Source: the human T2T-CHM13v2.0 reference genome, Homo sapiens. From it: a DNA stretch of 64,000 bases. This document shows positions 34,651 through 49,202 of the stretch, piece after piece. Each line of letters opens with the position of its first letter. The first letter of the stretch is position 1. A program made the translations under genes and the position numbers. The notes below the pieces were generated by a model. That model saw nothing but the letters and a program-made list of their open reading frames with translations, was not told where the DNA came from and did not search any database. The stretch lies in assembly GCF_009914755.1 (NCBI RefSeq), contig NC_060926.1; one strand, written 5' to 3'.

Positions 34651-36595
34651 ATTCCTTCACTTTTCCTTATGAATTAATTCTGGGTAGATTTCCCCTCTCC
34701 CTTCAATTTGTTTGTAGTATGATGATAGGAAGATATATTCACATTTTAATTTTAATGGATTTGTCATCCTCTATAAGACCTAAGTGACTTCTTATTTTAT
34801 AGTCAGTTGTATCTGACAATTTTAACAGAGTAATTGATTTAATTATTAAGATAAAAGGCAAATTATATGTTTTTATCTACAAATGACATGTTGTAGATAT
34901 GGTAAGAACTTTTTCATTAAAATAGTAAACATGTACTGTGAATTTTAAGTGGTTGTTACCCACTGAGATTTCTCAATCTCTACTTGGAATTTCGAATTAT
35001 TTATCATTAACAGCATACTAAAGGGGATTGGTATCCAGCAGGAATCACATTAGATGCAATTCAAACGTGAGAGAAAAGGATGGGGTAAAAAGGGCTATGC
35101 TTTTATTGTTTGATTTTCTTAGAAGCTTTAACCAACGAAAAGAAACTCCCCGCTCATGCCCCTACAAAAATACTGCCTCTTTTCGAGGCTGTGGTAGTAT
35201 TGTTACTACATTATAGCATAATTTAATAAATGTTACTCCCTGAGCCTTAAAGTGAAATACATTCACTGGGTCCTCTAAGGAAAATGAAGATGATTGAGAT
35301 GTAATCCCTGCCTTTAAAATCCTTGAGTTGGGAAGAAAGCTATATTATCTTTATTAAGAGAGTTATTGTACCCTAAATAATGGCACATATACCTAAACTT
35401 GAGGTGGCTGTGTAGAACACTCTCAAATTTCTACTCTACTGGTTTAAGATTATATTTTTTAACTATGGCACTTCCTAAGATCTCAGTGAAAATATCCAGT
35501 AACTAATTGTCTTTCTGTACAGAAACTTCCCAATCCAACCCTCCGCCGCCCCCGCAAAAAAAAAAGAGAAAAGAAATTTCTCATATGGAAATGAAACATC
35601 ATTTATCCATTTATGGAATAAAGACAAGACTCAATTCTACAAATTTCAGAACGTACCTGCTGCTCTGCATCTTTAAAAGCCAGCATGAGGCAGTACTCCA
35701 CTTTTGTGATACTCTGTTTTTAATACTAATTGTGAAATATGTCATTTACACAGAAGTGTGATGTAGAAATAATGGAACTGGAAGGTTTAATCATGCAGCT
35801 CTGTGGCATCTCTCAGACCTTGCTGGTGACCTACAAGGTATCTCTGTCCTCTGCTCCTTTCCCTCTAGCCCATTCTCCCCCATGTTCTCTAAGGCACCAT
35901 TGCTTTAAGTGTATGCTAGGGAAAATTTCTACGGCATGCTCCGTGTAAAGTTGTTTTCATGGCCAGGGAAGTTAGGAAACCCTGCATACTCTGTCTCCCT
36001 CTCAAAGACTCTGAATATGTTTTAACTTTAAAAATAGCCTCCAAGAAGTCAAAAAAAAAAAAAAAAAACACCTTTTCCCCCAGATTTTTTCATCATAGAC
36101 ACCCTCATTCTCTCCCCATATGCGATGGCTGAGAGCCTGTATATTAGACATTGGATTGATCCAAGTTTTAGAGGGAGCCAGTTTGGTTGCCTTCGTTGGT
36201 TTCTGAAGCCAGCCCTAAATGGGCACAGCCTTGGGCCAGACCTCCTGGGGAAGCGCCAGCAGCCTGTGGATTGACTGTCCATAGCGAAGGGCACCTGCAC
36301 ATCAGTCGGTGCCACCCTTGCTTCCTGGGTGCAAGTCTCATCTGTGGATACAGCAGGCACCGTAGCCCATGTACTCACTTTAATGAGATGCTCTGTACTG
36401 TCATTTATGTTTCATTCTTGTCCTTGATGTTGTGCTATCTTTTAAAGATGTTACATGCAGGTAGCCTGGCATCAAAGAATTTGTGATAGCAAAGATATTG
36501 GAAGTATCTTCCTAAGGGCCCAGCTTCCCAAATAGGCTACTTCTCAGGATCAGGCCCATTATGCTCCCTTTTAAGGTTATTAAATTGTTACATCA

Positions 36596-37243
<648 letters not shown>

Positions 37244-38204
37244 ACAGTCATGTATTTTAATCACTAAATTATTGCATGTAAAATATAATACTTAAGACAG
37301 GTCTAATCAGGTTTCTCTAATCTACTTTTAACAGAAAGAAGTAAAAACAAAACAAAACGTCCTATTGTTCCTCAATATAAACAAAGCAAGTTGTAGTTGT
37401 ATAATTTCATATTGTCTGAATTATAAAATTTCTATTTGTTATTTTTCATGACACAAAATATTATATTCATTTCTTTAATCTTTATCTGGAAAGAAAAAAC
37501 TTCCTTGTGTCACTAAACATTGAATTTTCTGATCTTTCAAGGTTATATACTATATTCGGGGGAGAGGGTTACTGTAGGAATCTTAAATCTGACTTGCTTT
37601 ACTTTTGTTAGTTTTAATCTCTGACTTAATATTATATTAAGGTACAATATTACATTAAGGTACTGACTAAATATTACATTGAACAGGCAATATGGAATGG
37701 CCATTTTCTGATTTTTATTTTCTAGTATTAGATTAATCCTTTACTTAAAGAAAATTGGTTTTTGGTAAGTTGAGTCAGAGATCGGCTCTTGCTTTTAGTA
37801 GTTTCCTCCCTCTACCCCCTTTCATGGGGATGGGTTTTTAAAAACATGAAAAAAAATGTCTGAATTATAAAGAATGTCTAGAATTGTCTCACTCATATCT
37901 GTCTTCGAAAATTATTTCAAAGGAATAGATACAGATTTCAGGAAGTCACATAAGGACGTATATTTAAGATAGTCACATTATTGGACTAACTATAACCTAT
38001 ATCTTAAAAGTTTTCTTTTACTGAAAGTAAATACCAGAGCTGGTTACACCGAGCTCTGTGAAACTCTTCTCTTATTTATTGCAACGTTAACTTACATTTT
38101 TCCTTTCTTTATGAGTGACGTAATATTGAATTTTGAGTTAACTCTCAACAAATTAGAGTACAATTCAGATGTGTGTGGGTTTTCTAATATATATCAGAGA
38201 TCAT

Positions 38205-40486: not shown

Positions 40487-41039
40487 ACACGCTTGAAATC
40501 TGTGAGTGGAAAGAGCTGTTGCCTGAAAGATGGAAACCAGGAGAATCCGAGGTCTAGATGTGCCACTGCTTGGGGGTTCGTCATATCACTAAGGTCTGGC
40601 ATTTAGGGCACTTGGTAGTACTTTATACCCATTTCCATTTTGCTACAAAATGCTGTCTGGCAAGATTTGAGTTTAATTTTGAGAGTTACTGGTTGAACCA
40701 GGATTCTTGGAGGGAGGCATTCAGCATATTGATTTTTTTAATGTTAGATAAAGGGACATTTATTTCTAACAGAGGAAATGGCTGTGTTAACTACTGTAAT
40801 GGTTTCCTTTACCATTTGGGAAGTTTGCTATTATTAGAGGGCACTAATTATGGCTTAAGCCTGGTACAGCATAAGAAAGATATAAAACATAACTGTACTT
40901 GGGTGGAGAATGTAAATGGCATAGTGTCTTACTGTCATTGTAGAAATCTGTCCTGGAATTTCTTGAGGGTCAAATCATGGAATGGACAAAAGTTGAGACA
41001 CAAGGATACAGTATAGTATGGCAGTGAAGAGTCTGACAG

Positions 41040-41363
41040 TTGAACTCACAGAGTAGAATGGTGGTTACAGGCACAGAGGAGGAGGAGAGTGGGGAAATGT
41101 TGGTCAAAAGACACAATCTCAGTTAGGAGGAATAAGTTCAAGAGGTGTATCCTACTACATAGTGACTATAGTTAATAACGTAGTTTATACTTGAAAATCT
41201 CTAGGAGAGTAGAATTTAAGTGTTCTCAACACACACACATACAAATTCGTAAGAATATAAGGTAATGCATATGTTAATTAGCTCAATTTAGCTATTCCAC
41301 AATGTATACATAGTTTAAAACACCATGCTGTACTCCATAAATATATATAATTTTGTTTTGTCA
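41040..41363 (+). mobile_element. Old L1M (L1MA-type) 3' end, interrupted by the L1PA insertion; it resumes at about 45762-45812
   Basis: gagtagaatggtggttac...aggaggaataagttcaaga...gtgactatagttaataa...ttccacaatgtataca...aattttg(t)tttgtca, continued by attaaaat after the second TSD copy. Confidence 0.8.
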
Positions 41364-43631
41364 TGATTTCTGTTCTTTTACATTTGCTGAGGAGTGCTTT
41401 ACTTCCAACTATGTGGTCAATTTTGGAATAAGTGTGATGTGGTGCTGAGAAGAATGTGTATTCTGTTGATTTGGGGTGGAGAGTTCTATAGATGTCTATT
41501 AGGTCTGTTTGGTGCAGAGCTGAGTTCAACTCCTGGATATCCTTGTTAACTTTCTGTCTCATTGATCTGTCTAGTGTTGACAGCAGGGTGTTAAAGTCTC
41601 CCATTATTACTGTGTGGGGGTCTAAGTCTCTTTGTAGGTCCCTAAGGACTTGCTTTATGAATCTGGGTGCTCCTGTATTGGGTGCATATATATTTAGGAT
41701 AGTTACCTCTTCTTGTGGAATTGATCCCTTTACCATTATGTAATGACCTTCTTTGTCTCTTTTGAACTTTGTTGGTTTAAAGTCTGTTTTATCAGAGACT
41801 AGGATTGCAACCCCTGCTTTTTTGTTTGTTTGTTTGTTTGTTTTCCATTTGCTTGGTAGATCTTCCTCCATCCCATTATTTTGAGCCTATTTGTGTCTCT
41901 GCATGTGAGATGGGTCTCCTGATGTGTCTTGACTCTTCATCCAATTTACCAGTCTGTCTTTTAATTGGGGCATTTAGCCAATTTACATTTAAGGTTAATA
42001 TTGTTATGTGTGAATTTGATCCTGTCATTATGATGTTAGCTGGATATTTTGCCCATTAGTTGATGCAGTTTCTTCCTAGCCTGGATGGTCTTTACAATTT
42101 AGCATGTTTTTGCAGTGGCTGGTACCAGTTGTTCCTTTCCATGTTTAGTGCTTCCTTCAGGAGCTGTTGTAAGGCAGGCCTGGTAGTGACAAAATCTCTC
42201 AGCATTTGCTTCTCCGTAAAGGATTTTATTTCTCCTTCACTTATGAAGCTTAGTTTGGCAGGATATGAAATTCTGGGTTGAAAATTCTTTTCTTTAAGAA
42301 TGTTGAATATTGGGCCTTACTCTCTTCTAGCCTTTACAGTTTCTGCCAAGAGATCAGCTGTTAGTCTGATGGGCTTCCCTTTGTGGGTAACCTGACCTTT
42401 CTCTGGCTGCCCTTAACATTTTTTCCTTCATTTCAACCTTGGTGAATCTGACAGTTATGTGTTTTGGAGTTGCTCTTCTCAAGGAGTATCTTTGTGGCGT
42501 TCTCTGTATTTCCTGAATTTGAATGTTGGCCTGCCTTGCTAGGTTGGGGAAGTTCTCCTGGGTAACATCCTGAAGAGTGTTTTCCAACTTGGTTCCATTC
42601 TCCCTGTCACTTTCAGGTATACCAATCAGACACAGAGTTGGTCTTTTCACATAGTCCCATATTTCTTGGAGGCTTTGTTCATTTCTTTTTACTCTTTTTT
42701 CTCTAAACTTCTCGCTTCATTTCATTCATTTGATCTTCAATCACTGATACCCTTTCTTCCACTTGATCGAATCGGCTACTGAAGCTTGTGCATGTGTCAC
42801 GTAGTTCTCTTGCCATGGTTTTCAGCTCCATCGGGTCATTTAAGGTCTTCTTTATACTGTTTATTCTAGTTAGCCATTCGTCTAATCTTTTTTCAAGGTT
42901 TTTAGCTTCCTCGCAATGGGTTCGAATATCCTCCTTTAGCTCGGAGAAGTTTGTTATTACCGATCTCCTGAAGCCTACTTCTGTCAACTTGTCAGAGTCA
43001 TTCTTTGTCCAGCTTTGTTCTCTTGCTGGTGAGGAGCTGCGATCCTTTGGAGGAGAAGAGGTGCTCTGGTTTTTAGAATTTTCAGCTTTTCTGCTCTGTT
43101 TTTTCCCCATCTTTGTGGTTTTATCTACCTTTGGTCTTTGATGATGGTGACCTACAGATGGGGTTTTGGTGTGGATGTCCTTTTTGTTGATGTTGCTCCT
43201 ATTCCGTTCTGTTTGTTGGTTTTCCTTCTAACACTCAGGACGCTCAGCTGCAGGTCTGTTAGAGTTTGCTGGTGGTCCACTCCAGACCCTGTTTGCCTGG
43301 GTATCACCAGCAGAGGCTGCAGATCAGCAAATATTGCAGAACAGCAAACGTTGCTGCCTGATCCTTCCTCTGGAAGCTTCATCTCAGAGGGGCACCCGGC
43401 TGTATGAGGTGTCAGTCAGCCCCTACTGGGAGGTGTCTCCCAGTTAGGCTACTTGGGGGTCAGGGACCCACTTGAAGAGGCAGTCTGTCTGTTCTCAGAT
43501 CTCAAACTCCATGCTGAGAGAACCACTGCTCTCTTCATAGCTCAATTGGAAAGGCAGAAATCACCCGTCTTCTGTGTCACTCATGCTGGGAGCTGTAGAC
43601 TGGAGCTGTTCCTATGTGACCATCTTGGAAC
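41364..43631 (-). mobile_element. Inverted 5' segment of an L1PA5/6-like element: 5' end, spliced 5'UTR, disrupted ORF1, and ORF2 endonuclease part
   Basis: ORFs 42703..43110 (MGKKQSRKAENSKNQ, ORF1p) and 41278..41871 (KAGVAILVSDK...GDFNT...YSKIDH, EN domain). The L1 5' terminus gttccaagatgg..ataggaacagctcc reads from 43631 on the minus strand. Confidence 0.93.
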
Positions 43632-45298
<1,667 letters not shown>

Positions 45299-45763
45299 CA
45301 AATTTAGGTTATTCTTATTTCAGAATATGAGCTCACTCACCCACACAGATGCTAGTTCTTGAATTTTGTTTGTACTAAATGAAAAACAACTTATTGGTTG
45401 GTTGACACATTTACCCCACTGGGGCCTGAATTCAGCCCCTTTTAGGAGGGACAGTTTCAGAATATGCCATGAGGTGTCTGCGGTGTAGATCCATGCTCTC
45501 TGCAAATAGGGGCAGCGGCTCTATAGCTGAGTCCTTTCCCAGACTCCTTTAAGAAATTTCAACAGGCTTTCACAGAGCTATGCCTGCTCCAAAATATACA
45601 TTGACATAATAAACCACAATGGATTTAAGTGTTTAAAGTCAGAAATACACTTTTAAAAATAAGTACTTCAGTTGGCCAGTGGAGCAGTAATACCTGGATG
45701 CTAAATTGAATTTGTTTAGAATAAACCACAGAGTAAACTTTAAAAAAAATGAAAATAAAAAAA
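45299..45763 (+). other. Putative L1 3' transduction with its own AATAAA (45720-45725) and A-rich tail (45742-45763)
   Basis: Non-L1 sequence between the L1 poly(A) and a second A tail, which is followed by the TSD copy aattttgatttgtca (45762-45776). Confidence 0.75.
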
Positions 45764-45855
45764 TTTTGATTTGTCAATTAAAATATACATTTATAAAGAA
45801 AAAATAATAAAACACTTTCCACATCATAGTTTATCTATAGAAAATGTGTCACCTT

Positions 45856-46658
45856 CCACAATGGTTGAACTAGTTTACAGTCCGACAAATATTGTAAAAG
45901 TGTTCCTATTTCTCCACATCCTCTCCAGCACCTGTTGTTTCCTGACTTTTTAATGATTGCCATTCTAACTGGTGTGAGATGGTATCTCATTGTGGTTTTG
46001 ATTTGCATTTCTCTGATGGCCAGTGATGGTGAGCATTTTTTCATGTGTTTTTTGGCTGCATAAGTGTCTTCCTTTGAGAAGTGTCTGTTCATGTCCTTCG
46101 CCCACTTTTTGATGGGGTTGTTTGTTTTTTTCTTGGGTAATGTACCCAAAGGACTATAAATCATGCTGCTATAAAGACACATGCACACGTATGTTTATTG
46201 CGGCACTATTCACAATAGCAAAGACTTGGAACCAACCCAAATGTCCAACAGTGATAGACTGGATTAAGAAAATGTGGCACATATACACCATGGAATACTA
46301 TGCAGCCATAAAAAATGATGAGTTAATGTCCTTTGTAGGGACATGGATGAAATTGGAAATCATCATTCTCAGTAAACTATCGCAAGGACAAAAAACCAAA
46401 CACCACATGTTCTCACTCATAGGTGGGAATTGAACAATGAGAACACATGGACACAGGAAGGGGAATATCACACTCTGGGGACTGTTGTGGGGTGGGCGGG
46501 GGGGGAGGAATAGCATTAGGAGATATACCTAATGCTAAATGACGAGTTAATGGGTGCAGCACACCAGCATGGCACATGTATACATATGTAACTAACCTGC
46601 ACATTGTGCACATGTACCCTAAAACTTAAAGTATAATAATAATAAAATTTAAAAAAAA
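45856..46658 (+). mobile_element. 5'-truncated, 5'-inverted L1PA3-like element (inverted part ~45856-46135, sense part ~46136-46658)
   Basis: Perfect 17-bp TSD agaaaatgtgtcacctt at 45839-45855 and 46659-46675. 3'UTR ttaggagatatacctaatgctaaatgacgag. Confidence 0.92.
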
Positions 46659-46859
46659 AGAAAATGTGTCACCTTAAAATTGTATACTTTTGTTGAAAAT
46701 GGATATTGAATAATGTCAAACATGAAAATGCAGCAGACCACTCAGAAGTATTCACTAGAGGAAAAGATAAAAAAAAAAAAGAGAGTCTGACATAGGAACC
46801 ACACTGTGCTTGAGCCCCACAAAGCTTCCACATTGCAAGTCTTCTGGGCTGTAAACATG

Positions 46860-47000
46860 GCGTTTATTTGCTGTGCACCTCAGTTTCCTCATCTGTGGAA
46901 TGGACATGACAATAAACCTCACAGGTTTGTTGTGAAGCATAAGTGTATTAATATGTGTAAAGTACTCAGAAATGAAGTAGTCAATCATTGTTAGCCTCTA
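46860..47000 (+). mobile_element. MIR core
   Basis: ctgtgcacctcagtttcctcatctgtggaatgg...cctcacaggtttgttgtgaag. Confidence 0.75.

Positions 47001-48944: not shown

Positions 48945-49202
<258 letters not shown>

What the first reader, a model, noticed from the sequence alone, without database searches (positions are those of the whole stretch)
43500..43631. SpIRE97/622-type splice junction in the L1 5'UTR
Seen: the minus strand reads ...GATTTCTGCCTTTCCAATTGAG|CTATGAAGAGAGCAGTGGTTCTC..., with the junction between 43541 and 43540. Established (recalled consensus): L1 has a donor ...CCAWCTGAG|GTACC near nt 97 and an acceptor ...GACAG|CTTTGAAGAGAGCAGTGG near nt 622. Their precise joining defines spliced integrated retrotransposed elements (SpIRE97/622). 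The excised ~520 nt contains most of the CpG-rich sense promoter, the antisense promoter and ORF0. Inference: this copy should be promoter-dead in both directions, which may explain why it is tolerated within PARD3B.
Basis: partly seen in the sequence, partly recalled or inferred. Interest (0 to 1): 0.7.

Follow-up and report, generated by a model that had tools for sequence, protein, structure and literature searches.

The report
Spliced, flipped LINE-1 carrying chromosome-8 DNA
A dead LINE-1 copy in a PARD3B intron lacks a 510-base piece bounded by splice-site letters, so it was likely copied from a spliced RNA; it is also half-flipped and carries 444 bases from chromosome 8, likely picked up from a parent element missing from this reference genome, which makes it an unlisted member of a known class rather than new biology.

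Summary
The junction is real. Against 25 unspliced relatives, the copy lacks 502-527 nt (median 510) between 43541 and 43540. The missing piece starts GT in 22 of 25 and ends AG in 21 of 25. This is the SpIRE97/622 junction. The locus is absent from Larson 2018 S1 Table. The spliced 5' part (5'UTR, ORF1, start of ORF2) is inverted up to the L1 5' end, about 1.7 kb of ORF2 is missing, and the sense 3' part is followed by poly(A), 444 nt matching one chr8 site (94%), and a second poly(A). No L1PA lies upstream of that chr8 site. Best reading: one spliced, read-through L1PA5-like RNA inserted by twin priming from a source L1 now absent at chr8. 'Promoter-dead' is overstated, since Larson measured weak residual sense activity. 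'Tolerated because promoter-dead' has no support. Side result: 185 junction matches genome-wide against 116 catalogued, and the gap lies mostly in older copies (28 of 63 listed versus 59 of 66). Verdict: new member of a known kind.

The parts
41349..41363 (+). left target-site duplication (15 nt); its last bases also match the L1 template at the internal priming point
   Evidence: 14 of 15 identical to right copy; 1 of 1492 random window pairs and 0 of 1000 shuffles reach 15; 6 of 7 match to the relative's sequence at that point
41364..42028 (-). start of ORF2 (endonuclease region, name recalled), cut at about position 2,800 of the full-length relative
42092..43110 (-). ORF1, broken (first stop after codon 135, further stops after)
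43111..43540 (-). 5'UTR downstream of the acceptor (exon 2 part)
43540..43541 (-). SpIRE97/622-type splice junction; about 510 nt GT-AG piece absent
43541..43631 (-). first ~90 nt of the L1 5'UTR (exon 1), reaching the usual 5' start of full-length relatives
43629..43633 (.). inversion junction: L1 5' end joined to ORF2 position ~4,516 with a 3-nt shared stretch and one extra A; ~1.7 kb of ORF2 is in neither half
43633..45275 (+). sense-oriented ORF2 3' part and 3'UTR
   Evidence: 92.5% to the chr6 relative
45276..45297 (+). degenerate first poly(A) tract (the source element's own tail)
45298..45741 (+). 444-nt unique segment matching G000:C8:56608298-56607851 (minus strand); acceptor-like stretch at 45311-45326; AATAAA at 45720
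   Evidence: (417 of 443 aligned bases identical)
45742..45761 (+). second poly(A) tract, absent at the chr8 site
45762..45776 (+). right target-site duplication; the interrupted older repeat resumes after it
   Evidence: 3 of 3 relatives of the host repeat continue with an AT-then-A-rich end like the right flank, not with L1PA sequence

Best explanation
This is one LINE-1 insertion (41349-45776) whose 5'UTR lacks an exact GT-AG piece, likely because the RNA was spliced at the 97/622 sites before it was reverse-transcribed. Shown: the GT-AG gap, the shared TSD around the whole unit, the inversion, the 1.7 kb gap, the two poly(A) tracts and the single chr8 match. Inferred, in order: (1) an L1PA5-like source sat at chr8 ~56,608,298 (T2T) and was transcribed through its own weak poly(A) signal to an AATAAA about 420 nt downstream; (2) the RNA was spliced; (3) at the PARD3B site the poly(T) end primed about 2.1 kb of cDNA, while the second nick primed internally near position 2,800 and ran to the RNA's 5' end; (4) the two cDNAs joined over a 3-nt match, dropping 1.7 kb; (5) the source allele was later lost or never fixed. 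The copy was dead on arrival: ORF2 is split and gapped, and the promoter is crippled.
For: Exact GT-AG boundaries in relatives. Same junction recurs at 185 places, control 0. Spliced copies are scattered among unspliced ones in the tree: 9 label changes, 0% of bootstrap trees with 1, as expected for repeated splicing. TSD significant, with host-repeat continuity. Both halves are about 92% identical to the same chr6 element. Short matches at both twin-priming joints, as described for 5'-inverted L1s (PMC2912911). The unique segment has one other match in the genome, limited to the same 448 nt; poly(A) and TSD are only at chr2, so chr8 is the parent.
Against: No L1PA 5' or 3' end lies within 8.7 kb upstream of the chr8 site (only an older, 79%-identical L1 end 2.1 kb away), so the source is inferred, not seen. 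The 1.7 kb gap is far above the 14.5-bp median for twin-priming deletions, and the inversion point lies far 5' of the reported 5.15 kb median (10.1101/2024.08.27.596794). The nick site implied by the TSD (AATT/A) is not the TTTT/A consensus, though Larson lists the same variant. The tree is star-like, with 7 of 53 branches well supported, and its sampling was biased toward the query.
Confidence: 0.8

Rival explanations
1. Splicing and twin priming as above, but the chr8 segment came from a separate polyadenylated chr8 RNA: reverse transcription began on that RNA and switched onto the tail of an unrelated spliced L1 RNA.
For: No source L1 at chr8 in this genome. Template switching is a described route to L1 chimeras (10.1101/2025.02.02.635956 passages).
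Against: The L1 3' end is complete and followed by its own A-rich tail, the order expected from read-through. The chimeras in the passages read carry the foreign RNA at the 5' side. The chr8 break (TTGT/A on the opposite strand) resembles a relaxed endonuclease site (weak).
Confidence: 0.12
2. The 510-nt gap is a DNA-level deletion over the shared AG, or inherited from an already deleted source element, with no splicing in this event.
For: The two ends share AG. A SpIRE that borrowed a host promoter and moved again is on record (RAP1GDS1), so the source itself could have been a SpIRE.
Against: Identical endpoints at 185 places and 29 of 29 inspected loci. No clade of spliced copies around this one. 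No foreign 5' sequence ahead of the L1 start.
Confidence: 0.04
3. The two L1 halves are separate insertions or a later rearrangement lying head to head, not one twin-primed event.
For: The 1.7 kb gap is unusually large.
Against: One TSD brackets both halves, and the host repeat resumes exactly after it. Both halves diverge equally from the same relative (91.6% and 92.5%). The inverted half has no tail or TSD of its own.
Confidence: 0.04

Closest known systems
SpIRE97/622 (Larson et al. 2018, PMC5860796)
   Same: Same donor and acceptor, GT-AG removal within the 5'UTR, TSD, poly(A), intronic site, L1PA1-6 age range. Larson also lists single copies with an inversion (nos. 52, 100) or a 3' transduction (nos. 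13, 16).
   Different: Not among the 116 listed. About 510 nt removed instead of 524. No row of S1 Table notes both an inversion and a traced 3' transduction.
5'-inverted L1 by twin priming (PMC2912911; 10.1101/2024.08.27.596794)
   Same: Inverted 5' part and sense 3' part inside one TSD of 15 nt, with short matches at both joints and an internal deletion.
   Different: The inverted cDNA (2.27 kb) reaches the L1 5' end, so there is no 5' truncation. The gap is 1.7 kb versus a 14.5-bp median.
L1 3' transduction (PMC9311842 passages; Larson S1 Table)
   Same: L1, poly(A), unique DNA with AATAAA, second poly(A), TSD; 444 nt is within the reported 7-997 nt.
   Different: Old (6% diverged from its parent site), and no source L1 is present at the parent site in this assembly.

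Membership tests
SpIRE97/622 | 5'UTR deletion starting at the GT donor after about nt 97 | tested here: met
   GT in 22 of 25 unspliced relatives at the join
SpIRE97/622 | deletion ending at the AG acceptor before about nt 622 | tested here: met
   AG in 21 of 25; junction words match catalogued copies
SpIRE97/622 | flanking TSD of about 6-25 bp and 3' poly(A) | tested here: met
   15 nt, 14 of 15; two A tracts
SpIRE97/622 | insertion at an L1 endonuclease site (TTTT/A or variant) | tested here: inconclusive
   implied AATT/A, a variant also listed for SpIRE 58
SpIRE97/622 | L1PA1-L1PA6 subfamily | tested here: inconclusive
PA6 is not excluded
SpIRE97/622 | strongly reduced sense promoter activity | not testable with these tools
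   measured only for an L1.3-based construct
twin-primed 5'-inverted L1 | inverted 5' and sense 3' segments within one TSD, with microhomology at both joints | tested here: met
partnered 3' transduction | unique DNA between two poly(A) tracts inside the TSD, with a parent copy elsewhere | tested here: met
partnered 3' transduction | full-length source L1 directly upstream of the parent copy | tested here: not met
   none within 8.7 kb in this assembly; other primates could not be searched. It is built like a transduction, but the source is not shown

The most novel reading that the evidence does not exclude
The insertion delivered a ready-made terminal-exon cassette into PARD3B: an acceptor-like stretch at 45311-45326, about 415 nt, AATAAA and poly(A), all sense to the gene. 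PARD3B RNA uses it to make a truncated isoform. The cassette is also the only trace of an extinct source L1 on chr8.
Probability: 0.07. Interest if true: 0.6.

Novelty: new member of a known kind. Interest (0 to 1): 0.3.

Why it matters
The junction itself is textbook. Two things add modest value. First, one insertion records splicing, read-through, twin priming to the RNA's 5' end and a vanished source, so the chr8 tag gives a precise address at which to look for a lost L1PA5-era source in primate genomes. Second, the published SpIRE97/622 catalogue appears to miss about half of the older copies. By exact motifs the spliced share is 1.6% in the older junction type and 2.2% in the younger, so the reported fall-off toward L1PA5-6 is likely in part an effect of the >95%-identity L1.3 probe. 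That can be tested with one alignment pass over full-length L1PA4-8.

Tried and rejected
MAFFT alignment of the junction with unspliced copies misplaced the short first exon and was not used; pairwise and BLAST results were used instead. A CHCH-domain search to name genes near the chr8 site found nothing there, so the parent site is given by coordinate only. Rfam found nothing in 41000-47000. A panel of subfamily-labelled reference copies could not be fetched, so PA5 versus PA6 stays open. Two papers (Speek 2001; one on transduced sequences) were not held and were not seen. Rejected: that the unique 444 nt is plain host intron (it has a chr8 parent and lies inside the TSD); that chr8 is the derived copy (no tail there); that siblings carry the same tag (2 of 2 candidates are chr8 and this locus); a single spliced lineage.

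Full report
Observation. The minus strand shows the quoted join between 43541 and 43540. A search with the 841 nt downstream of the join returned 40 scored matches, of which 30 were fetched: the locus itself, one spliced copy, three lacking the first 5'UTR piece, and 25 with both flanks. In those 25 the intervening piece is 502-527 nt (median 510), starting GT in 22 and ending AG in 21. Larson et al. define SpIRE97/622 by donor G98U99 and acceptor A620G621. The two ends share AG, so one copy alone could not exclude a DNA deletion. Recurrence does: 29 of 29 other loci fetched with the junction have the same join, and a 24-nt pattern has 185 matches with 0 in the reversed control.

Is it listed? 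I read S1 Table whole: no PARD3B row. The nearest chr2 SpIRE97/622 entry is 12.6 Mb away, while assembly offsets on this arm are about 0.5 Mb. A term search of all 8 held supplements for the gene name and two coordinate stems found nothing; S1 Data was searched, not read. Larson required >95% identity to a 100-nt L1.3 probe, and this copy is at most 93% identical to any relative compared. Paper searches for PARD3B with LINE-1 (3 listings, none about this element by title or abstract start) and for SpIRE97 with L1PA5 (0 papers; that spelling also missed Larson's own paper, so it is a weak search) found no description. Supplements of the bioRxiv preprints were not seen and could list the locus.

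Anatomy. A 15-nt repeat (14 of 15) at 41349-41363 and 45762-45776 brackets it. Random window pairs reach that length in 1 of 1492 trials and shuffles in 0 of 1000, and 3 of 3 relatives of the older host repeat continue with an AT-then-A-rich end like the right flank (the family name L1MA is recalled). Inside, against a full-length chr6 relative: 41364-43631 is the spliced 5' part on the minus strand (positions ~1-2,800; 91.6% for the long block, 86% for the 93-nt first exon); 43633-45275 is ORF2 from ~4,516 to the 3' end on the plus strand (92.5%); 1,709 nt lie in neither. The TSD end matches the L1 template at 6 of 7 bases at the internal priming point, and the inversion joint shares 3 nt with one extra A. 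ORF1 has a stop after codon 135. This fits twin priming, with two unusual values: the inverted cDNA reaches the 5' end, and the gap is 1.7 kb against a median of 14.5 bp in tumours.

The chr8 segment. After the first A tract, 45298-45741 matches one other place, C8:56608298-56607851, at 417 of 443 bases. A 1,560-nt query from chr8 recovers only the same 448 nt at chr2. AATAAA sits 16 nt before the second A tract; chr8 has the signal but no tail, and keeps 10 CpG against 2 at chr2. Chr8 is therefore the parent. The 8.7 kb upstream holds Alu-like repeats and an older L1 end (79%, 2.1 kb away) but no L1PA. A source that was polymorphic and lost is my inference from how transductions form; two narrow searches for such cases returned nothing. 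A template switch remains possible.

Age and lineage. In a tree of 56 of 58 sequences (two under 1,200 aligned nt dropped), the copy has a 0.065 end branch (median 0.058) and falls in a weakly supported group of 20 unspliced and 7 spliced copies. The spliced label needs 9 changes, against 19 in shuffles; that clustering is expected from how the two sets were drawn. One neighbour is matched by coordinate to a Larson PA5 entry; that match is my arithmetic on chrX offsets and is less secure than those. L1PA5 is likely and PA6 is not excluded.

Function. Larson found 7-fold versus 267-fold activity over empty vector, so the sense promoter is crippled but not silent. The primary antisense start near nt 400 lies in the removed piece. 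In relatives, CpG density is 1.9 per 100 nt in the removed piece, 2.1 in exon 1 and 0.8 downstream, so most CpGs are removed. Nothing links this to tolerance: 3,759 and 2,916 copies keep the two intact donor words. Because of the inversion, the L1 3' end, the tag and both tails point with PARD3B, 3.2 kb before the exon at 48948. The hub's table shows no exon there for the one transcript of 18 displayed.

Catalogue gap. Exact 17-nt junction words give 63 older-type and 66 younger-type hits. Matching by consistent coordinate offsets, read by hand, places 28 of 63 and 59 of 66 in Larson's table (one of the 59 rests on a repaired chr21 coordinate). Only the loci fetched were checked by alignment, some are segmental duplicates (L014, L018, L029), and the assemblies differ. 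Spliced shares are 63 of 3,822 (1.6%) and 66 of 2,982 (2.2%), from words of 17 versus 16 nt, so they are rough.

Papers seen. PMC5860796: abstract, Results parts 1, 2 and 4, Discussion part 1, the BLAT methods, supporting legends part 1, S1 Table whole. PMC4908685: one section and passages. Passages only: 10.1101/2025.02.02.635956, 10.1101/2024.08.27.596794, PMC2912911, PMC9311842, PMC7110667, PMC9022269. Speek 2001 and Denli 2015: not seen; ORF0 position is recalled.

Verdict. The functional gloss is overstated, and the more informative features were missed. New member of a known kind, interest 0.3.

Noticed in passing
window 45839-46675: A second, younger-looking 5'-inverted L1 (inverted 45852-46134, sense 46150-46642) with a perfect 17-nt TSD at 45839-45855 and 46659-46675, only 62 nt beyond the SpIRE's right TSD; its tail also lies sense to PARD3B.
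   Followed up: partly
genome-wide: About half of the older-type SpIRE97/622 junctions (35 of 63 exact hits) have no match in the 2018 catalogue; five more lie on chr2 alone.
   Followed up: partly
L003:851-1298 (C8:56607851-56608298): The parent segment keeps a CpG-rich patch (10 CpG) that decayed in the chr2 copy (2 CpG), hinting that the chr8 site is unmethylated or constrained.
   Followed up: no
L014, L018, L029 (C9) and L050, L057 (C2): Near-identical copies, likely segmental duplicates; the three C9 copies share a variant junction.
   Followed up: no
L017, L025, L027, L031, L032, L033: Six spliced copies form a 100/100 clade with an internal branch of 0.019; probably a younger subfamily group with no unspliced members sampled, but a shared spliced source was not tested.
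   Followed up: no
window 36590-37249: Two Alu-like repeats in opposite orientation about 40 nt apart (family name recalled).
   Followed up: no
L035 (C6, within the 5'UTR): A short tandem duplication makes this relative's removable piece 527 nt instead of about 510.
   Followed up: no
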